The position numbers were made by a program, and so were the translations under genes. Shown in pieces: positions 16,864 through 25,463 of a stretch of 64,000 bases of DNA. This DNA comes from Lachnospiraceae bacterium (lineage in GTDB: Bacteria > Bacillota > Clostridia > Lachnospirales > Lachnospiraceae). The stretch spans positions 40,718-104,717 of the forward strand of contig JAIKZQ010000050.1 in the NCBI GenBank assembly GCA_024682075.1. The letters are read 5' to 3'. The notes beneath the pieces were generated by a model. The model did not search any database. It saw nothing but the letters and a program-made list of their open reading frames with translations, and was not told where the DNA came from. Each line of letters starts with the position of its first letter. Position 1 is the first letter of the stretch.

Positions 16864-17793
16864 TCACGGATTCAAAAGGACTCCGACGACCAGAAATCTC
16901 TTTGAAGCATCATGGTTAACAGTGCAGGTCGAGAGAGTAATGAGCCTGTCATCCACATCCGGCTCTATATCATGACGGATGTTGGCCGGATAAGGGCTGG
17001 TGGAATCCATATTTTCTATATTTCTGATGTACTGTGCAAACACATACTCATTCGACACATCAAAATTCAGCAAAAGGTGGATCGAGACATATTCATATGC
17101 GGCGAAGATCTCATACACCAGTTCTCTTCCGTCCTCAGTGTATATGTAGATATAGTGAGGCTCTTCCACCATCTGAGGATCCGCGAAATTATGCAGCGTG
17201 GAAAACATCGTGTCGTTATCCATGTTGTGTCCGTAGATCACCGTGTTGGGATCGGTAAAATCCCTGCTGTTGTAATTCTCCGTATATATCACGCCCGGAA
17301 AGCCGTATGATCCGTCCAGGTTGTGATTGAGATAATACTCATTGTTCGAAGGATGCTGCAGGACAGGATAGTCAACGCATGTCCCCGGCACATATATCCA
17401 CGCATAAATATCCGGATTGGTCTGATGAAGCTTATCCCAGTCAAGTTCTCTGACAGGAGCTTCGGGAATATCCGATGCGTCTCCGTCATCAGAGATTTCA
17501 TCACTCCCCTGTTCCGATGCATTCTCCGAGTTCTCTCCCTGCGCGGCAGCTTCCATGAGCCCCTCGGGAGACAGACCGCCGGTCGTCCTATCATCCGCTC
17601 CTTCCGAAACTTCGGCTGCGGATCCTGCGCCTTCTGTACTCGCTTCCTGAGCCAGCTGTTCATACGCCGCACGCCGGGCATTTTCATTCTTTTCACGTAT
17701 CACGGATGCTATCACGCAAAAAGCCCCGACACACAGCAGCCAGGCAGCAATGGCAAGCCACAGTATTTTTTTTCGGAAGTCATTATTTTCCAT
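16864..17793 (-). CDS. srtB: Class B sortase
   Basis: N-terminal TM; NPDIYAWIYVPGT, IYGHNM (His), TLSTCT (Cys) and RFLVVG (Arg). Confidence 0.92.
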   Translation of the reverse strand: MENNDFRKKILWLAIAAWLLCVGAFCVIASVIREKNENARRAAYEQLAQEASTEGAGSAAEVSEGADDRTTGGLSPEGLMEAAAQGENSENASEQGSDEISDDGDASDIPEAPVRELDWDKLHQTNPDIYAWIYVPGTCVDYPVLQHPSNNEYYLNHNLDGSYGFPGVIYTENYNSRDFTDPNTVIYGHNMDNDTMFSTLHNFADPQMVEEPHYIYIYTEDGRELVYEIFAAYEYVSIHLLLNFDVSNEYVFAQYIRNIENMDSTSPYPANIRHDIEPDVDDRLITLSTCTVNHDASKRFLVVGVLLNP

Positions 17794-17918
17794 AATTTAT
17801 TGCAAACTACACCTCAATATATTATATAACATATACTATTCAAAAGAAATGCTTATTTTTCGGGGGATGTCCACTGTTCGTTTGACTAAAAACAGAGCAC
17901 TGATATATTATTCTATCT

Positions 17919-19064
17919 ATGAATAAAAAAATCGACAAAATCTCAATGGCAGGAATTATCCTTTTGCTCGTGACAGCCGCCACGGTTTTCGCGGTAAACT
18001 TACGCATCCCGTTTATGATGGATGACTTATGGTATTCAACTCTTCTGTATTCCCCCGAACGAATCGATTCCTTTTCCGACATAATAAGCGCCCAGGTCTG
18101 GCATTATAACAACTGGGGCGGAAGAAGCATCACCCACGGCCTTCTCCAGCTGATACTCATGTGCGGGGAAAGCGCTGCGGATGTGCTCAACACACTGTTC
18201 ATCTTCATTCTCTCAGGTTCCATGCTGCTGACGGCATCCGTCGCTTCCGGCAAAACAAAGAATCTTCCGGCAAGTCTCTCAGCCTGCGCAGGAATGATCA
18301 TCGGTCTTAACGCCAACTGGAAGATGAGCATGTTCTGGGAGGCCGGAGCTGCCAATTACCTGTTCATCACCGTCTTCATAATGCTGTTTTTATTCTGCTA
18401 TCTCAGGGAAGTTCCCGAAAAAGAAAACGCGGATCACAAAAGTCTTCCCGGAATATGCATATGGATGATCCCTCTCGCGATCATCGCAGGATGGAGCAAC
18501 GAGAACATGGGCCCCACCTGTTTTATCATCTCAGTCGCCACCATGATACTGATCAAAAGAGCGGGCAAAAAGATCTCTCTTTGGATGATCGAAGGAAGCA
18601 TCCTGTCCCTTGCGGGTTCCGTGATGTGCATCGTTGCACCCGGAAATTTTGTCCGCAACTCCCAGATTCCCAAGAAAGGTTTTCTGTGGACGATCTTCCT
18701 GAGATGCTACACGGAATGCACCGCGGCACTCAGTTTCCAGATCCTGACCGTCACTGTTCTCGCCGCTATACTCCTGATAAGCACCGTCTTCTGTGGCATA
18801 AAGCTGAAGAAGACGGAAAAGCTCCTGCTCCTTGCATCACTTCTTTCATGGGGCGCCATGTTTTTGTCACCGCATTATCCCGACAGGGCCACTTTCGGCA
18901 CCATGTGTCTGATGATAACCGTCATCATGTCAAGAGTTTCCCTGACCGTTAAACAAAAAAAAGAAGCCCTCGGGCCTCTTTTTCTCGGATCTATGATCAT
19001 CTGGGTCAAGGGCATGTATGACCTGACCGAATTTCTGGCAATATGTTTCGGATGGATCACCTGA
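17919..19064 (+). CDS. DUF6056-like polytopic membrane protein (possible GT-C fold)
   Basis: MMDDLWY, WGGRS, GAANYL, WSNEN and APGN motifs; about 10 TM segments. Confidence 0.65.
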   Translation: MNKKIDKISMAGIILLLVTAATVFAVNLRIPFMMDDLWYSTLLYSPERIDSFSDIISAQVWHYNNWGGRSITHGLLQLILMCGESAADVLNTLFIFILSGSMLLTASVASGKTKNLPASLSACAGMIIGLNANWKMSMFWEAGAANYLFITVFIMLFLFCYLREVPEKENADHKSLPGICIWMIPLAIIAGWSNENMGPTCFIISVATMILIKRAGKKISLWMIEGSILSLAGSVMCIVAPGNFVRNSQIPKKGFLWTIFLRCYTECTAALSFQILTVTVLAAILLISTVFCGIKLKKTEKLLLLASLLSWGAMFLSPHYPDRATFGTMCLMITVIMSRVSLTVKQKKEALGPLFLGSMIIWVKGMYDLTEFLAICFGWIT

Positions 19065-19068
19065 TGAA

Positions 19069-20610
19069 CTAAGCACGTGCGTGATGAGGTGAATCATCAT
19101 ATTCTTTCATATATTCTTTGACATAATCGGCATCGGATCTGCATGGCGCATATACGGTGCCGTATTTTTGTCTGGTTTCCTCGCCTTTTCCGGTTATGAG
19201 CAGGACTGTGGGCTTTCTGACTTCCATTATCGACTTGTGAATGGCCGCGCCTCTGTCCTCGATCTCTTCGTATTCTATTCCGGCTTCCCTGGCATATGAA
19301 GCGACCTCTTTCGAGATCTCCTCTGCAGGATCAGGACCGGGATCCTCTGCGCAGATGTAAAGTTTGTCCGCGTACTTTGCTGCAGTCTGAGGAAGTTCAT
19401 ACCTTCTCTGATATGCCTTTCCTCCGGGGCATCCGAATATTCCGACGATCCTTGATCCCGGATACTCCTTTTTGGCGGATGAATACAGTGCCTCAAAGCT
19501 CAGCTTGTTATGAGCATAATCGACAAATGCATTGATCAGGCCGTCCCTGCTTTTGAAATGTTCCATTCTTCCGGGAGATTTTGCCTTGCGGAGTCCTTCT
19601 TTTATGTCACTGACGGGAATCTTGTATGCTCTTGCAGCAGCGATGACTCCGAGGGCATTTTCCACATTGAAAAGTCCCGGCATCGTCAGTTCAAAATCCT
19701 CTTCAAAAGAATCCTCACCGTTCGCCCTGACCTTGAAGAAAATGCTGTCTCCTTCTTTTCTGATATCCGTTGCATGATAATCCGCGGATCCGTCTTTACA
19801 GCTGAATGTCACGATTCTTCCAGCAGCCCCTGCTTCATCCAGAACTCTGTCTATGCAATCGGAATCAAGATTAACGACAGCTGTGTCACAAAGTGCGAAC
19901 ATCTTCATCTTGGATGCCAGATAATCTTCGAAATCGGCATGTTCATTGGGGCTTATATGATCTTCGGATATGTTCATGAACACTCCGACGCCGAATCTCA
20001 TGCCCAGCACTCTGTCATATTTGAGAGCCTGGCTGGAGACTTCCATCTCAAGATAATCGATCCCGCTGGATACGGCATTATCCAGATGCATGTGAAGTTC
20101 CAGTGACTCTGCGGTAGTAATATGGGATTCTTCTCTTATGACCCCGTCGTAATTATCTATCGAGGAGAGCACCGCGCTTTCCGGCTTGCCCATTCCTTTC
20201 AGATATTCATCCACGACATATTTCATGTAATAGGTCGATGTTGATTTTCCCTTGGTCCCGCCGAAAGCGGTTATGTTTATCTTGTTCTGAGGATAGTCGT
20301 AGAACAGATCTCCGAGCATAGGCATTGCTTTCCTGATGTCGGTCACGATCATGGCAGGTATCCCGTTTCCTTCCGGATACTCACTTTCCGACACATAAGC
20401 CACAGCGCCGTCACTTATCGCACTCTTAAGATACTCGGATTTAAAAGCGGCACCTTTGCACACAAAAAGCGTTCCCTGCCTGACCTGTCTGGAATCATAT
20501 GTGACTGATTCGATCCTGACACCAAATTCTTCTTCAAGATTGCATTTGACCAGAAGTCCCGCTTCCTGCAGTGCATCCCTGTATTTTTCAAGATTCATGA
20601 CCTTGCTCAT
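19069..20610 (-). CDS. murE: UDP-MurNAc-tripeptide synthetase (MurE family) with a non-DAP-type specificity loop
   Basis: GGTKGKST P-loop, EVSSQAL, NISEDH, DYAHN and LITGKG; EDPG where DAP-specific enzymes have DNPR. Confidence 0.85.
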   Translation of the reverse strand: MSKVMNLEKYRDALQEAGLLVKCNLEEEFGVRIESVTYDSRQVRQGTLFVCKGAAFKSEYLKSAISDGAVAYVSESEYPEGNGIPAMIVTDIRKAMPMLGDLFYDYPQNKINITAFGGTKGKSTSTYYMKYVVDEYLKGMGKPESAVLSSIDNYDGVIREESHITTAESLELHMHLDNAVSSGIDYLEMEVSSQALKYDRVLGMRFGVGVFMNISEDHISPNEHADFEDYLASKMKMFALCDTAVVNLDSDCIDRVLDEAGAAGRIVTFSCKDGSADYHATDIRKEGDSIFFKVRANGEDSFEEDFELTMPGLFNVENALGVIAAARAYKIPVSDIKEGLRKAKSPGRMEHFKSRDGLINAFVDYAHNKLSFEALYSSAKKEYPGSRIVGIFGCPGGKAYQRRYELPQTAAKYADKLYICAEDPGPDPAEEISKEVASYAREAGIEYEEIEDRGAAIHKSIMEVRKPTVLLITGKGEETRQKYGTVYAPCRSDADYVKEYMKEYDDSPHHARA

Positions 20611-21335
20611 AATTCCTCGTACTCCGCTCCGCTTCTGATGATGGATTCCCTGACCAGGACATCCAGGGCATCAACGCAATGAACCGGCACCTTGTGATGT
20701 TTCTTGTATACGCTGAGTTCGGTGCATGCAAGAATGATCACATTACAGCCCTTGTCCTGAAGATTGGATACAGCCGCATGGAACTTATCCTCATCACCGA
20801 GCTTTCCTGCCTTGATGTCATCATATATCAGGGACATTACCTTCTTCTGATACCCGGGATCGGGGATATCGGATTCAAGGCCGTATTTGGTACACGCCTT
20901 CTGATAAAGTCCCGTCTTGACAGCACCATCCGTTGCAAGTATTCCGACCTTCTTCACCCTGATCTCGCCCTCTGCGATGGATCTTGCGGTTTCCTCGATC
21001 ATATTGATGACAGGAATGTCAGTCATCGCCTGTATCCTGTCTATGAAAAAGTGTGAAGTGTTACAGGGTATCGCTATATTCCCGGCTCCGCATTTTTCAA
21101 GCTTTTCAATCTCGCCCTTCATGGCCTGCAGGAGTGCGTCGTGCTCTCCGGTATTGATTGCCTCGGTCCTGTCCGGCATTGATGCGTGACTCAGAATGAC
21201 CATGTCGATATGATCCTGATCCCTGAGAGCTTTTGTATGTGCAATGACTTCTTCATAGAAGTATGCCGTTGCCTCCGGACCCATTCCTCCTATCACGCCT
21301 AATATCTTCTTCATAAGATCATCCTTTTCACTCAA
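20607..21335 (-). CDS. Aspartate/glutamate racemase family protein (probable aspartate racemase)
   Basis: GVIGGMGPEAT, IPCNT and LACTEL (both catalytic Cys present). Confidence 0.88.
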   Translation of the reverse strand: MSEKDDLMKKILGVIGGMGPEATAYFYEEVIAHTKALRDQDHIDMVILSHASMPDRTEAINTGEHDALLQAMKGEIEKLEKCGAGNIAIPCNTSHFFIDRIQAMTDIPVINMIEETARSIAEGEIRVKKVGILATDGAVKTGLYQKACTKYGLESDIPDPGYQKKVMSLIYDDIKAGKLGDEDKFHAAVSNLQDKGCNVIILACTELSVYKKHHKVPVHCVDALDVLVRESIIRSGAEYEEL

Positions 21336-22567
21336 AGCTTGTAGTATTTTTTGAACTTGACATAATGGCTGAAATACGTCCGGATCATCCTGTACATCCT
21401 GCCCGGCTCGGAATCACCCTTGAGGAATACCGGATTTACAACCTGTCCGGAATTCCAGAGTTTTATCATCCTCTCTTTAAGTTCCGGATCCCTGACATAC
21501 TTAAGAGCAACGCCCTTCGGAACCACCGTCCACAGATGCTCCTCCTCCGCATACTTAAGAGGAAGCTCCTTTCCGTAGAAATAGTCCTCGGTAATGTACT
21601 CGGCAACATTGAAACCGGAGCCTGTCACATAATAATTGCTGCGACCCTGTCTTGTGTTGATCTCAAAGAATTTGAATTTTCCGTCACGCGTGTCATATTT
21701 GATATCGAAGTTCGAATATCCGACATAATGCATTGACTCAAGCAGCCCCTTTACTCTCTCCATCAGCTCCTTATTGGGCTCTGTGATGATGAGAGCGTGG
21801 TTTCCGAGTCCGTGGGGGGTATGCTCTTCGAGGAGCACATGTCCCAGACACATCATCCTGACTTTTCCTTCATGATCGGAATATGATGTCAGCACTCTCA
21901 TGTACTCATCATTTCCGGGGATCATGTCCTGGATGATCATCTTATCCGTATATCCTGCCGAGTAAATATCATTCAGCACGCTGATAAGCTCATCACGGTC
22001 ATGTATCGTGTATACTTTTTTCTGTGTGTCAAAGGGATGCTCCCAGTACTGGATGCCGTTTGAAGGCTTCATGATGACAGGATACGGAAAAGACATCTCA
22101 AAATCTTCGCCCATATTCCGGTCATATATGACAGTTCCGGGATAGTCGATGCCCCACTTATCGCAGAGGCCATAGAAAGTTTCTTTCATCTGAAGAGAAT
22201 GCATCAGCTCATAATCGATATACGGAGTGATGACGTTCTCTGCGAGCTCATTCTTATGCTTTGAGCAAAGCGCCACATATGAATCCCCGCAACCGATGAG
22301 TATTATGGTCTTATCCTTATGAGATGCGGCAAAATCATTGATCCTCTTAACAAAATAGTCATCGGTCTCTATTCTTGGATCGGCTTCATATTCAATGAAC
22401 CTGCTTCCGTAGCTCGGACCGGTCGCGTATTTTCCGAAAACGTAACATTTTACGTTGTATTTTTCATAAAAGGCTCTTGAAACGCTGTAAGTATTGATAT
22501 CCCCTCCGAGCATTACAGGGATGAATTCTTTTTCCGTAAAAGTCATGGATCCGTTCGTTCCTTTCAC
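21332..22567 (-). CDS. ATP-grasp carboxylate-amine ligase, D-aspartate ligase (Asl)-like
   Basis: LGGDINTYSVSRAF, YPVIMKP, IQDMIPG, NFDIKYD and FEINTRQGRSNY; coupled to the racemase gene. Confidence 0.85.
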   Translation of the reverse strand: MKGTNGSMTFTEKEFIPVMLGGDINTYSVSRAFYEKYNVKCYVFGKYATGPSYGSRFIEYEADPRIETDDYFVKRINDFAASHKDKTIILIGCGDSYVALCSKHKNELAENVITPYIDYELMHSLQMKETFYGLCDKWGIDYPGTVIYDRNMGEDFEMSFPYPVIMKPSNGIQYWEHPFDTQKKVYTIHDRDELISVLNDIYSAGYTDKMIIQDMIPGNDEYMRVLTSYSDHEGKVRMMCLGHVLLEEHTPHGLGNHALIITEPNKELMERVKGLLESMHYVGYSNFDIKYDTRDGKFKFFEINTRQGRSNYYVTGSGFNVAEYITEDYFYGKELPLKYAEEEHLWTVVPKGVALKYVRDPELKERMIKLWNSGQVVNPVFLKGDSEPGRMYRMIRTYFSHYVKFKKYYKL

Positions 22568-22708
22568 TTTAATGCCATGAACAACATCATTTAGTATACC
22601 ACATTTTGGCTTCCCTGCGTCATTTGCAAAGGCTTTCGATAAATCTTGGAATATCTCTTCTTTTGAAGTAAAATGTATGTTCAGAATCAGGAAAACAGAG
22701 GTTTCAGG

Positions 22709-23788
22709 ATGAAAAAACCATTAAAGATCACATTAAAGGTCCTGTTATGGATCATCGCGGCATCTGCGGGTGCTTTCGTGCTCATGATACTGTGGCTGAC
22801 GATCCGTGAATACAGACCTGCCGAAAAAGAAGCTCTGAGCGTTGAGTCCTCCGGCGCAGGCACGGCCGTTTCGCTGAACGAAGAGATCCGGATCATGACA
22901 TGGAATGTCGGTTGCGGCGTGCTCGGCGATAATGCCGATTTCTTCATGGATGGCGGCAGCATGGTCTACACAGCGGATAAAGACCGGGCACGGAGCAATC
23001 TGTCCGGGATCTGCGAAACTTTAAGCGAAACAGGTGCGGACATCATTCTGCTCCAGGAAGCCGACCGGGATGCGTCCAGATCCTACCACATAGACGAGAC
23101 TGCGATCGTTTCGAATCTTTTTCCCGAATACGATCATACATATGCATACAACTTTCACGTTGATTACGTCCCCTATCCGATCCCGCCAATTGGAGAGGTA
23201 AAAAGCGGACTTTTGACTTTATCACGCTTTGGCATCTCATCAGCCGAAAGGATCCAACTCCCCTGTCCCTTCAAGTGGCCCACAAGAGTTGCCAATCTCA
23301 AGAGATGCTTATCGGTAAACAGGATCCCCATCGAAGGATCCGGCTCGCAGCTGGTGATCGTCAATCTGCACCTCGAAGCGTATGATGACGGAGAAGGCAA
23401 GGAAGCTCAGACAAGAATGCTCTGCGAATTCCTCGAAAATGAGGTTGCAGCCGGCAATTACGTCATAGCAGGGGGAGATTTTAACCAGACATTCTCGGGC
23501 ACAGATGCCTCTGCATATCCCGCATATGAGGACAAATGGCATCCGGGCATCCTGGATGAATCGGCATTTCCGGGCAGTTTTACTTTCCTTCAGGATCCTT
23601 CATCCCCGAGCTGCAGATCACTGGATCAGCCCTATGACACGGCTTCGGACAAAGAGCACTTCCAATTCTATGTGATAGACGGATTCATAGTCTCAAGCGG
23701 CATAGAGGTGATCCGGGCAGATACCGTGAATCTGAATTTCAGAAACACAGACCACAATCCCGTCGTGATGGATGTGATAATACACTGA
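22709..23788 (+). CDS. Membrane-anchored endonuclease/exonuclease/phosphatase (EEP) family protein
   Basis: N-terminal TM; MTWNVG, LLQEAD, NLHLEA, GGDFNQ and TDHNPV; ATG at 22709 preferred over 22673. Confidence 0.85.
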   Translation: MKKPLKITLKVLLWIIAASAGAFVLMILWLTIREYRPAEKEALSVESSGAGTAVSLNEEIRIMTWNVGCGVLGDNADFFMDGGSMVYTADKDRARSNLSGICETLSETGADIILLQEADRDASRSYHIDETAIVSNLFPEYDHTYAYNFHVDYVPYPIPPIGEVKSGLLTLSRFGISSAERIQLPCPFKWPTRVANLKRCLSVNRIPIEGSGSQLVIVNLHLEAYDDGEGKEAQTRMLCEFLENEVAAGNYVIAGGDFNQTFSGTDASAYPAYEDKWHPGILDESAFPGSFTFLQDPSSPSCRSLDQPYDTASDKEHFQFYVIDGFIVSSGIEVIRADTVNLNFRNTDHNPVVMDVIIH

Positions 23789-23819
23789 TGTTTTATATGC
23801 ACACTGATGTTTCATACGC
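23782..23819 (+). repeat. 19-bp tandem direct repeat with 2 mismatches, spanning the EEP stop codon
   Basis: acactgatgttttatatgc followed by acactgatgtttcatacgc. Confidence 0.8.
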
Positions 23820-23824
23820 AAGAG

Positions 23825-23856
23825 CAGGCCCCGCCTTTCGGCAGGGCCTGTTTTTT
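23825..23856 (+). terminator. Intrinsic terminator between convergent EEP and pgi genes
   Basis: caggccc-cgcc-tttc-ggca-gggcctg followed by T6. Confidence 0.8.
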
Positions 23857-23891
23857 GCAATGAATAGATGTTATCGGAATCTTTAGATCTG

Positions 23892-25463
23892 TCAGATCTC
23901 GAAGAGATCACTGTATGCCTTAAGAGCACCGTCGGTCTCATGAGCAAGTACCTTCTTGGCAAGTACTTTGCCGAGCTGTACTCCCTCCTGATCGAAGCTG
24001 TTAAGGTTCCATACAAATCCCTGGAACATGACCTTATTCTCAAAGTGCGCAAGAAGTGCTCCGAGAGCTTCGGGGGTGAGCTTTTCTCCCACGATTATGC
24101 TGGAAGGTCTGTTTCCGGCGAAATTCTTATTCTTATTGTCATCAGCCTTGCCGCCTGCAAAGGCCATGATCTGAGCAACGACATTAGCACAGAGCTTCTT
24201 CTGGCTGGTGCTGCCCTGAATGTCAACATCTACGCCCTGCTGGCTCTCCTTAAATCCGATGAACTGAAGCGGGATTATGTCGGTGCCCTGATGAAGGAGC
24301 TGATAGAATGAGTGCTGTCCGTTTGTTCCGGGCTCACCGAAAATTACGGGACCGGTCACATAACTGACAGGCTCTCCGAATCTGTTCACGCTCTTTCCGT
24401 TTGACTCCATGTCAAGCTGCTGAAGATGAGCCGGGAATCTGCTCATTGCCTGTGAATAAGGCAGGACAGCAGTAGAGCCGTAGCCAAGGACGTTCCTTTC
24501 ATACACGCCGATGAGTGCATCGAGAAGATCGGGATTCTCAAGGATATCGGATGCAGTAGCAAGCTTATCCTCTTCAGCTGCTCCGTTAAGGAATCTTGCA
24601 AATATGTCGGGACCGAATGCAAGTGAAAGAACGGCACCGCCGACTGCCGATGTTGATGAATATCTTCCGCCGATGTAGTCATCCATGAAGAATGCATCAA
24701 GATAATCGCTGTTTCCTGCAAGAGGAGATGTTTCGGATGTGACGGCGATCATATGTTTGGAAGGATCAAGACCCGCCTTCTTAAGCGCATCCTTCACAAA
24801 TGCTTCATTGGTGAGTGTCTCAAGAGTGGTTCCGGACTTGGACACGAGGATGAAGATGGAATGAGCCACATCAACGTTTGCAAGGACGCCTGCTGCATCA
24901 TCGGGATCCACGTTTGAGATGAACTGTGCTCCCATCTTGAAGCATCCGTTTACCTTTGCCCAGTTCTCAAGCGCAAGGTACATTGCCCTGGGGCCGAGAT
25001 CAGATCCGCCTATGCCGATCTGCACTGCGGTGGTGAACTTCTCGCCCTTTTCATTTACTATCTCACCGGCATGAACCTTGTTTGCAAATTCAGCGATCCT
25101 TTCCTGCTGTTTTACATAGAAAGCTCTCTTGTCGGTTCCGTCACACTCTACCTTATTGCCGAGCTGTCCCCTTGTGAGATGATGAAGCACAAGTCTCTTC
25201 TCACCCGTGTTGATGACCTCTCCGTTAAAAAGAGCCTCAAACTTCTCGACAAGGCCTGCCTCATCGGCAAGTTTCTGCAGATCCTTCAGGATGGCATCAT
25301 CCACATTCTTGGCAGCGAAATTATAATCCATGCCGGCTGCCATCCTGACAGAGTACTTCTGTACCCTCTCTGCCGTCATGACCTTGGTGAGGTCTGCGGG
25401 AGCGTCGGATGCAAGTTTTGCGGATGCATCAAGCTGATCGTAGTTAATCCATTTAATTGCCAT
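23892..25463 (-). CDS. pgi: Glucose-6-phosphate isomerase
   Basis: IGIGGSDLGP, SKSGTTLET, GGRYS, QQLDMESNGK, GTNGQHSFYQLLHQG and FDQEGVQLGK. Confidence 0.96.
   Translation of the reverse strand: MAIKWINYDQLDASAKLASDAPADLTKVMTAERVQKYSVRMAAGMDYNFAAKNVDDAILKDLQKLADEAGLVEKFEALFNGEVINTGEKRLVLHHLTRGQLGNKVECDGTDKRAFYVKQQERIAEFANKVHAGEIVNEKGEKFTTAVQIGIGGSDLGPRAMYLALENWAKVNGCFKMGAQFISNVDPDDAAGVLANVDVAHSIFILVSKSGTTLETLTNEAFVKDALKKAGLDPSKHMIAVTSETSPLAGNSDYLDAFFMDDYIGGRYSSTSAVGGAVLSLAFGPDIFARFLNGAAEEDKLATASDILENPDLLDALIGVYERNVLGYGSTAVLPYSQAMSRFPAHLQQLDMESNGKSVNRFGEPVSYVTGPVIFGEPGTNGQHSFYQLLHQGTDIIPLQFIGFKESQQGVDVDIQGSTSQKKLCANVVAQIMAFAGGKADDNKNKNFAGNRPSSIIVGEKLTPEALGALLAHFENKVMFQGFVWNLNSFDQEGVQLGKVLAKKVLAHETDGALKAYSDLFEI

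What the first reader, a model, noticed from the sequence alone, without database searches (positions are those of the whole stretch)
19069..22567. Coupled D-Asp ligase, racemase and non-DAP MurE operon implies an A4-type (Lys/Orn-D-Asx) peptidoglycan
The three genes overlap by ATGA at 21332-21335 and 20607-20610. Asl plus aspartate racemase build D-Asp bridges in Enterococcus faecium and lactococci. This MurE has EDPG where DAP-selecting enzymes have DNPR. Many Clostridia use directly cross-linked meso-DAP, so this cassette may switch or diversify the stem peptide. That would affect NOD1 sensing, phage lysin susceptibility and what the nearby sortase anchors to.
Basis: partly seen in the sequence, partly recalled or inferred. 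Interest (0 to 1): 0.55.

Follow-up and report, generated by a model that had tools for sequence, protein, structure and literature searches.

The report
D-Asp-bridged, non-DAP cell-wall operon
This rumen/gut Lachnospiraceae bacterium has a three-gene operon (D-aspartate-ligase-like enzyme, aspartate racemase, lysine-type MurE) holding its only MurE, so its wall is predicted to be lysine- or ornithine-based with D-aspartate bridges rather than DAP-based: a known chemistry in a little-studied group.

Summary
The three minus-strand genes are real and correctly named. One detail is wrong: the 21332-21335 junction reads TTGA, not ATGA.

- **ATP-grasp protein:** 35% identical over its full length to the ligase beside the racemase in Latilactobacillus curvatus.
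- **Racemase:** best match is the Pyrococcus aspartate racemase 1JFL, with both catalytic Cys kept.
- **MurE:** carries EDPG at the DNPR position. It sits in a clade with Collinsella MurE that is sister to the L-Lys MurEs of E. faecalis and L. curvatus.

**Family survey (301 Lachnospiraceae genera):** all 23 genomes with a close asl homolog also have this MurE type, nearly always adjacent.

**The cassette is not an add-on here.** It holds the only MurE found in this genome (90% complete) and in a 99%-complete genome of the same genus.

**Second MurE tracks sporulation.** 21 related genera keep a second, DNPR-type MurE, and 20 of them have SpoIVA. None of the 15 single-MurE genomes does. This fits a DAP spore cortex lost together with sporulation.

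**Unexplained:** this genus has no MurI, so the source of D-Glu is unknown.

Earlier notes of this scan describe the same cassette and the same two-wall idea in other Clostridia. This is a new member of a known kind, and all evidence is sequence-based.

The parts
21332..22546 (-). asl-like ATP-grasp ligase (predicted D-aspartate ligase), 404 aa from the ATG at 22546. The longest ORF runs to a GTG at 22567.
   Evidence: ORF. Homologs are 403-406 aa. AF2 model has pLDDT 86 and an ATP-grasp fold, with top PDB hits L-amino-acid ligase 3VOT, CPS, PurK and PylC. 35% identity, E 2e-93, to the L. curvatus carboxylate-amine ligase that lies beside an amino acid racemase. IMG names homologs 'D-aspartate ligase'.
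20607..21314 (-). aspartate racemase (two-Cys, PLP-independent), 235 aa from the ATG at 21314. The longest ORF starts at a TTG at 21335.
   Evidence: TIGR00035 213 bits, PF01177 153.5 bits. Best PDB match is P. horikoshii aspartate racemase 1JFL (161.6 bits), with CNTSH and ACTE Cys motifs conserved. 37% identity to the L. curvatus racemase beside the ligase. It is the only PF01177 member in the genome.
19069..20610 (-). MurE of the non-DAP (L-Lys/L-Orn) type, 513 aa. It is the only MurE found in the genome. Its start overlaps the racemase stop (ATGA).
   Evidence: TIGR01085 274.7 bits against a cut-off of 257.3. EDPG at the DNPR position and GKGEETRQK in place of GKGHExYQE. The clade is sister to E. 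faecalis and L. curvatus L-Lys MurE, SH-aLRT 100. Single MurE in G000 and G156.
22547..22603 (-). 5' leader with a Shine-Dalgarno sequence (AAAGGA, 22563-22558) and a possible extended -10 promoter element (TGGTATACT, 22601-22593).
   Evidence: Read by eye. The consensus scan did not call it because no -35 matches, so confidence is low. No Rfam family was found in 17000-24000.

Best explanation
The three genes form one operon that sets the peptidoglycan chemotype of this non-sporulating Lachnospiraceae bacterium.

Inferred mechanism:
1. MurE (19069-20610) adds L-lysine or L-ornithine, not meso-DAP, to UDP-MurNAc-L-Ala-D-Glu.
2. The racemase (20607-21314) converts L-Asp to D-Asp.
3. The ATP-grasp ligase (21332-22546) activates the beta-carboxyl of D-Asp as an acyl phosphate and joins it to the side-chain amine of the position-3 residue of the nucleotide precursor.
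4. The D-Asp amine later acts as acceptor in transpeptidation, giving an A4-alpha or A4-beta wall.

Because this is the only MurE in the genome, the wall should contain no DAP.

Shown by sequence: the family memberships, the motifs, the operon conservation and the genomic co-occurrence. Inferred: the substrates and the resulting wall structure.
For: **Ligase**
- ATP-grasp fold.
- Full-length homology (35% identity, 2e-93) to the L. curvatus ligase that lies beside a racemase. The D-aspartate review draws RacD and AslA in that species' D-Asp pathway and cites the AslA chemistry from Bellais 2006. The LAB cell-wall review places racD and aslA in one operon in L. lactis.
- In L. crispatus the homolog lies beside a long asnB.
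- IMG names homologs D-aspartate ligase.

**Racemase**
- 161.6 bits to the P. horikoshii aspartate racemase, both catalytic Cys kept, against only 29 bits to a MurI structure.

**MurE**
- EDPG replaces DNPR.
- The best named hits are Collinsella, L. curvatus and E. faecalis (249-317 bits). DAP enzymes of Bacillus, Listeria and the like score 191 bits or less.
- In the tree, the P0001-type clade is sister to the L-Lys MurEs with SH-aLRT 100. These carry DDPG and DDPA at the same position.

**Linkage**
- The asl-rac-murE order is conserved in 14 fetched Clostridia loci, most titled Lachnospiraceae genera. An asl-rac pair is present in about 55 Collinsella/Coriobacteriaceae loci.
- In 301 Lachnospiraceae genera, all 23 genomes with asl at 48% identity or more have this MurE type. 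All 22 genomes other than G000 carry both genes on one contig.

**Sole MurE**
- One MurE over the cut-off in G000 and in the 99%-complete same-genus genome G156.
- Where relatives do have a DAP-type enzyme, it is a separate DNPR paralog only about 30% identical.
Against: - There is no biochemical or muropeptide evidence for this organism or any close relative. The review PMC11382707 lists Roseburia, Coprococcus and Lachnoclostridium peptidoglycan as uncharacterised.
- I made no direct comparison with the assayed E. faecium or L. lactis enzymes. The link runs through Lactobacillaceae homologs identified by context.
- P0001 fails every NCBIfam equivalog cut-off, including the L-lysine ligase model (308 bits against 536).
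- Lys and Orn cannot be told apart from sequence.
- The racemase also passes the NCBIfam cysteate racemase (CuyB) cut-off, 216.7 bits against 190.
- The racemase is the only Asp/Glu-racemase-family protein in a genome that lacks MurI. It may therefore also, or instead, supply D-Glu.
- G000 is only 90% complete.
Confidence: 0.75

Rival explanations
1. Same architecture, but the bridge acid is D-Glu, or both D-Asp and D-Glu. The operon racemase would be a glutamate or bifunctional Asp/Glu racemase, and the ligase would add D-Glu to Lys/Orn. This Lys/Orn-D-Glu type is, from memory, reported for Anaerococcus and Peptoniphilus.
For: No MurI was found in G000 or G156. P0002 is the only PF01177 protein in G000. 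No D-amino-acid transaminase was found, and the weak hit is IlvE. D-Glu must come from somewhere.
Against: P0002 matches the Asp-specific 1JFL far better (161.6 bits) than the Asp/Glu racemase 5HQT (54.7 bits) or MurI (29 bits). Of the 23 asl-bearing relatives searched (asl at 33% identity or more with this MurE type), 21 have a MurE-linked asl and also a normal MurI, so the linked racemase has its own job there. Homologous pairs occur in D-Asp organisms (L. curvatus; Collinsella, from memory).
Confidence: 0.1
2. The cassette is accessory. A canonical DAP-adding MurE exists in the unassembled 10% of the genome, and the operon only diversifies the wall, or serves one cell type, as in sporulating relatives.
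For: G000 is 90% complete. 21 of 36 genera with this MurE type do carry a second DNPR MurE, often 0.1-4 kb downstream.
Against: The same-genus genome G156 (99% complete, 10 contigs) also has only this MurE. The position downstream of murE in the window is taken by a convergent DUF6056 gene. All 15 single-MurE genomes, G000 included, lack SpoIVA and SpoVAD, while 20 of the 21 two-MurE genomes have SpoIVA and 19 have SpoVAD.
Confidence: 0.05
3. The MurE still adds meso-DAP despite lacking DNPR, and the ligase/racemase pair modifies something else, such as a wall polymer, a secondary metabolite, or cysteate metabolism (CuyB).
For: PGAP-style annotation names related enzymes 'DAP ligase'. The CuyB model passes its cut-off. 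The neighbourhood is rich in glycopolymer genes.
Against: The same 'DAP ligase' label sits on L. curvatus MurE, from a species the reviews group with L-Lys-D-Asp lactobacilli. The arginine of DNPR and the histidine of GKGHE are both missing. In relatives this MurE type coexists with a true DNPR paralog, which would be redundant if both added DAP. The asl-MurE linkage holds in all 22 other genomes.
Confidence: 0.05

Closest known systems
Aslfm/Racfm of Enterococcus faecium and AslA/RacD (+AsnH) of Lactococcus lactis and lactobacilli (D-aspartate ligase EC 6.3.1.12; Bellais 2006 and Veiga 2006, as cited in PMC4155827 and PMC13631041)
   Same: An ATP-grasp ligase paired in one operon with a two-Cys aspartate racemase, in a genome whose MurE is of the Lys type. 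35-37% identity over the full length to the Lactobacillaceae ligases.
   Different: Here the MurE gene is part of the same operon. In L. curvatus murE lies about 11 kb away. No AsnH-like amidotransferase was found. The host is a Clostridia anaerobe. I made no direct comparison with the assayed proteins themselves.
Collinsella aerofaciens and Atopobiaceae asl-rac pair and MurE. From memory, Collinsella has A4-beta L-Orn-D-Asp (Kageyama 1999, paper not held). Atopobium is listed as A4-alpha in PMC11382707.
   Same: These are the closest relatives outside Clostridia: ligase 56-58%, racemase about 50%, MurE 42-44% identical. MurE motif is DDPG/EDPA, and each genome has a single MurE.
   Different: In Coriobacteriia murE is not adjacent to asl-rac, and they have a normal MurI.
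Lysinibacillus (Bacillus) sphaericus two-wall system: L-Lys-D-Asp vegetative wall, meso-DAP spore cortex (Tipper laboratory, 1970s; from memory, papers not held)
   Same: Sporulating relatives of this genome carry both a Lys-type and a DNPR-type MurE. The DNPR copy is found almost only where SpoIVA and SpoVAD are present.
   Different: This genome is the asporogenous end state with only the Lys-type enzyme. The cortex role of the DNPR paralog in Lachnospiraceae is inferred from co-occurrence only.
Pyrococcus horikoshii aspartate racemase (PDB 1JFL)
   Same: Best solved match of P0002 (161.6 bits). Both catalytic cysteines and their surrounding motifs are conserved.
   Different: That enzyme is a free-standing archaeal protein with no peptidoglycan context.

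Membership tests
D-aspartate ligase (Asl/AslA, ATP-grasp, EC 6.3.1.12) | ATP-grasp fold | tested here: met
   AF2 model pLDDT 86.2, pTM 0.84. Foldseek top hits are L-amino-acid ligase 3VOT, CPS, PurK and PylC, E about 1e-14 to 1e-15. There is no Pfam hit.
D-aspartate ligase (Asl/AslA, ATP-grasp, EC 6.3.1.12) | Full-length sequence homology to Asl of D-Asp-bridged Lactobacillales | tested here: met
   35% identity, E 2e-93, over 413 columns to the L. curvatus ligase next to a racemase. 35-37% to the L. fermentum and L. crispatus homologs. The assayed E. faecium and L. lactis proteins were not available for comparison.
D-aspartate ligase (Asl/AslA, ATP-grasp, EC 6.3.1.12) | Operon partner is an aspartate racemase | tested here: met
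   The racemase lies directly downstream in the window. The pair is conserved in Lachnospiraceae and Coriobacteriia loci and in L. curvatus.
D-aspartate ligase (Asl/AslA, ATP-grasp, EC 6.3.1.12) | Ligates the beta-carboxyl of D-Asp to the side-chain amine of position 3 of UDP-MurNAc-pentapeptide | not testable with these tools
   Needs an enzyme assay.
Aspartate racemase (PLP-independent, TIGR00035) | Family model over cut-off, and two catalytic cysteines | tested here: met
   TIGR00035 213.3 bits against 93.1. CNTSH and ACTE align with Cys82 and Cys194 of 1JFL.
Aspartate racemase (PLP-independent, TIGR00035) | Specific for Asp rather than Glu or cysteate | tested here: inconclusive
   It matches 1JFL far better than MurI. 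It also passes the CuyB cysteate racemase cut-off, 216.7 against 190. It is the only family member in a genome without MurI.
L-Lys/L-Orn-adding MurE | MurE family membership (TIGR01085) | tested here: met
   274.7 bits against a cut-off of 257.3, covering model positions 3-471.
L-Lys/L-Orn-adding MurE | DNPR replaced by a D/E-D/N-P-G/A/N type motif | tested here: met
   EDPG in P0001. DDPG in L. curvatus, DDPA in E. faecalis and DDPG in Collinsella at the same column.
L-Lys/L-Orn-adding MurE | Groups with known L-Lys enzymes in a tree | tested here: met
   Quick IQ-TREE: the P0001-type clade (SH-aLRT 98) is sister to E. faecalis + L. curvatus (SH-aLRT 100), apart from DNPR enzymes. The careful search did not finish.
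L-Lys/L-Orn-adding MurE | NCBIfam L-lysine ligase equivalog NF010628 over cut-off | tested here: not met
   308 bits against a cut-off of 536. No MurE equivalog model is passed, so this is a distinct subfamily.
meso-DAP-adding MurE | DNPR motif and GKGHExYQ motif | tested here: not met
   EDPG and GKGEETRQK in P0001. Both motifs are intact in the second paralog of relatives.
A4-type (Lys/Orn-D-Asp) peptidoglycan | Muropeptides with a D-Asp/D-Asn bridge on Lys or Orn, and no DAP | not testable with these tools
   Needs sacculus chemistry. No data for this clade turned up in the papers searched.

The most novel reading that the evidence does not exclude
A sizeable block of Lachnospiraceae, at least 36 of 301 genera sampled, builds its vegetative wall on Lys/Orn rather than DAP, and 23 of these are predicted to use D-Asp bridges. 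Spore-formers among them keep a second, DNPR-type MurE solely for a DAP spore cortex. That gene has been lost at least eight separate times together with sporulation, and this genome is one such end point. In this genus the operon racemase may also have taken over D-Glu supply from the missing MurI.
Probability: 0.45. Interest if true: 0.6.

Novelty: new member of a known kind. Interest (0 to 1): 0.42.

Why it matters
Peptidoglycan chemistry of most gut and rumen Lachnospiraceae is unmeasured (PMC11382707, Table 1) and is usually assumed to be DAP-type.

If this clade makes Lys/Orn-D-Asp walls, its muropeptides would not be the DAP-type NOD1 ligands. They would also differ as substrates for lysins, amidases and sortases. 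Genome-based peptidoglycome predictions for the gut would then have to read the MurE type and asl, not the taxonomy.

The MurE-paralog/sporulation pattern also gives a simple genomic marker for two-wall organisms.

The enzymology itself is known, so the gain is in distribution and prediction, not in a new mechanism.

Tried and rejected
- **First search for related loci attempt.** It failed because the 50-sequence alignment had no stretch conserved enough. A 12-sequence alignment worked, but its best 80 loci were Clostridia and Coriobacteriia only, so E. faecium and L. lactis were not reached.
- **Solved structures.** There is no solved Asl structure.
- **Literature.** Searches for Lachnospiraceae, Blautia or Collinsella peptidoglycan types and for the B. 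sphaericus cortex papers gave no primary data. Kageyama 1999 is not held. Those two points therefore rest on memory.
- **Cysteate racemase (CuyB).** Rejected as the main reading on context, not on sequence.
- **AsnH.** The only strong asparagine synthase in G000 is housekeeping AsnB (NF006949, 601 bits). It is 30% identical to the long asnB that lies beside asl in L. crispatus.
- **D-amino-acid transaminase as the D-Glu source.** The only hit is IlvE.
- **Regulatory RNA.** No Rfam element lies around the operon.
- **Careful tree.** The treekit search did not finish in the time allowed, so I used the quick tree and a FastTree.
Full report
**1. Observation**

Three minus-strand ORFs occupy 19069-22567.

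- 19069-20610 is a MurE. TIGR01085 scores 274.7 bits against a cut-off of 257.3, with Mur_ligase_M and Mur_ligase_C domains.
- 20607-21335 is an Asp/Glu racemase. PF01177 scores 153.5 bits and TIGR00035 213 bits.
- 21332-22567 has no Pfam hit and only weak CPS-like NCBIfam hits. An AlphaFold model (pLDDT 86.2) has an ATP-grasp fold. Its best PDB matches are L-amino-acid ligase 3VOT, carbamoyl-phosphate synthetase, PurK and PylC.

The ligase/racemase junction is TTGA, not ATGA.

The more likely racemase start is the ATG at 21314. It follows an AAGGA Shine-Dalgarno sequence, and the alignments to 1JFL and to the L. curvatus racemase begin there. That leaves a 17-nt spacer rather than an overlap.

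The ligase probably starts at the ATG at 22546, since homologs are 403-406 aa.

The EDPG-for-DNPR claim holds in alignments with M. tuberculosis, Bacillus, Listeria and Klebsiella MurE.

**2. The ligase**

The family is large. A search of cluster representatives (one per 50%-identity cluster) gave 3355 matches at E of 0.001 or better. Close homologs come from Lachnospiraceae MAGs, Sellimonas and Coprococcus and are named only 'ATP-grasp domain-containing protein'. IMG calls more distant members 'D-aspartate ligase', and the ESM Atlas lists a cluster of that name among its nearest. These are annotations, not tests.

A more direct link came from PLSDB records that are evidently chromosome pieces.

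- In Latilactobacillus curvatus a 417-aa 'carboxylate-amine ligase', 35% identical to P0003 (E 2e-93), lies directly after an 'amino acid racemase' and aspS. That racemase is 37% identical to P0002.
- A 2026 review draws RacD and AslA in the D-Asp pathway of L. curvatus and gives the AslA chemistry from Bellais 2006. A lactic-acid-bacteria cell-wall review places racD and aslA in one operon in L. lactis.
- In L. crispatus the homolog follows a 649-aa asnB. In L. fermentum it stands alone.

I could not obtain the assayed E. faecium or L. lactis proteins themselves.

**3. The racemase**

Its best solved relative is the Pyrococcus horikoshii aspartate racemase 1JFL (161.6 bits), and both catalytic cysteine motifs are conserved. 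The Asp/Glu racemase 5HQT scores 54.7 bits and MurI 29 bits.

It also passes NCBIfam's cysteate racemase (CuyB) cut-off, 216.7 bits against 190. The Bariatricus orthologue does too. Given the context, I read this as a lenient model rather than a different function.

**4. The MurE**

Among named records, P0001 matches Collinsella aerofaciens (317 bits), L. curvatus (270) and E. faecalis L-lysine ligase (249) best. DAP enzymes of Bacillus, Listeria and other DAP-type organisms score 191 bits or less.

In a quick maximum-likelihood tree, the P0001-type sequences form one clade (SH-aLRT 98). This clade includes Collinsella and Thermophilibacter. It is sister to E. faecalis + L. curvatus (SH-aLRT 100) and lies apart from all DNPR enzymes.

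The Lys enzymes carry DDPG/DDPA where P0001 has EDPG. Both groups lack the His of GKGHE.

P0001 passes no NCBIfam equivalog, the L-lysine ligase model included. Lys and Orn cannot be separated from sequence. From memory, Collinsella is Orn-D-Asp, and the review lists Atopobium as A4-alpha.

**5. Linkage and distribution**

The genome-collection scan returned 80 loci.

- The asl-rac-murE order is conserved in 14 Clostridia loci: Bariatricus, Mordavella, Dorea, and MAGs titled Lachnospiraceae, Oscillospiraceae, Clostridiales, Eubacteriales or Bacillota.
- Two loci have asl-murE without the racemase.
- About 55 Collinsella/Coriobacteriaceae loci have asl-rac without murE.

In a sample of 301 Lachnospiraceae genomes, one per genus:

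- 27 have an asl homolog.
- 36 have a P0001-type MurE at 43% identity or more.
- All 23 genomes with asl at 48% identity or more have that MurE. In all 22 other than G000 the two genes share a contig, and in 21 of them they lie within about 1 kb.
- Twelve genera have the MurE type without asl.

**6. One MurE or two**

G000 (2.84 Mb, 90% complete) has a single MurE, a single asl and a single racemase. The same-genus genome G156 (99% complete, 10 contigs) also has only this MurE. So the cassette is the wall pathway here, not an add-on.

Bariatricus, Mordavella, Catenibacillus and a Dorea MAG carry a second MurE, about 30% identical to P0001, with intact DNPR and GKGHExYQE. It often lies 0.1-4 kb downstream of the cassette.

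Across the 36 genera with the P0001 type:

| Group | Genomes | With SpoIVA | With SpoVAD |
|---|---|---|---|
| Two MurEs | 21 | 20 | 19 |
| One MurE | 15 | 0 | 0 |

On a tree of the P0001-type enzymes, the single-MurE, non-sporulating state appears in at least eight separate places, with four clean sister contrasts. G068 is the one clear exception: two MurEs and neither spore marker.

This fits the classical Lysinibacillus sphaericus case, which I cite from memory: a Lys-D-Asp vegetative wall and a DAP spore cortex. The papers I could search gave no description of it in Lachnospiraceae.

Earlier notes of this scan reached the same reading on other Clostridia genomes. I read them only after my own tests. 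They are AI notes, not independent evidence.

**7. Loose ends**

- **No MurI in this genus.** No glutamate racemase MurI was found in G000, G156, G040, G228 or G265, while 34 of 38 relatives have one. P0002 is the only PF01177 protein in G000. No D-amino-acid transaminase was found. The source of D-Glu in this genus is therefore unexplained, and P0002 may be bifunctional.
- **No AsnH-like enzyme.** The 528-aa asparagine synthase, about 38 kb beyond the window, is a housekeeping AsnB type. The bridge may therefore stay unamidated.

**8. Verdict**

The system is a known one (Asl/RacD with a Lys-type MurE) in a group where it has not been described chemically. Hence I classify it as a new member of a known kind, of moderate interest. 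The more interesting and less certain layer is the family-wide two-wall pattern and the missing MurI.

Noticed in passing
own genome G000 and G156; racemase at window 20607-21314: No canonical glutamate racemase MurI in this genus, nor in G040, G228 or G265. The operon racemase is the only Asp/Glu-racemase-family protein in G000, and no D-amino-acid transaminase was found. The source of D-Glu for the stem peptide is unexplained.
   Followed up: partly
relatives: L018, L020, L021, L023, L095-L097, L107-L117: 21 of 36 Lachnospiraceae genera with the Lys-type MurE also keep a DNPR MurE. 20 of the 21 have SpoIVA and 19 have SpoVAD, against 0 of 15 single-MurE genera. The DNPR copy was lost at least 8 separate times. 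G068 is an exception: two MurEs and no spore markers.
   Followed up: yes
P0002 (window 20607-21335); L020:8229-8933: NCBIfam equivalog NF052483 (cysteate racemase CuyB, cut-off 190) is passed by asl-linked racemases of Lachnospiraceae (216.7 and 203.5 bits). These may therefore be named cysteate racemase by automatic annotation.
   Followed up: partly
L098, L099 (Collinsella, Thermophilibacter MurE); L036-L094: Coriobacteriia MurE nests inside the Lachnospiraceae Lys-type MurE clade in a FastTree, and their asl is 56-58% identical to P0003. This suggests transfer of the wall module between the two phyla. The direction was not tested.
   Followed up: no
proteins P0126, P0137, P0170, P0174, P0188, P0199; G130:C13:16385-17890, G037:C7:3748-5229: Fused forms exist: asl homologs of 649-677, 817-837 and 1235 aa, and open frames of 865 and 800 aa around the MurE of G130 and G037. 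The partner domains were not examined.
   Followed up: no
G090, G047, G224, G117, G158, G087, G046, G068, G204, G297, G188, G181: Twelve Lachnospiraceae genera have the Lys-type MurE but no asl homolog. Their cross-bridge, if any, must be made another way.
   Followed up: no
PLSDB records CP117684.1, CP033372.1, NZ_CP143580.1: 'Plasmids' of 592-760 kb from L. curvatus, L. fermentum and E. faecalis carry housekeeping genes (murE, aspS). They look like chromosome pieces labelled as plasmids.
   Followed up: no
window 1-8000: The first 8 kb of the window has 33-36% G+C against about 47% elsewhere.
   Followed up: no
window 17919-19064 (+): A DUF6056 gene converges on murE with only 4 nt between the two stop codons and no terminator between them. 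In Mordavella this position holds the DNPR murE followed by priA and def.
   Followed up: partly
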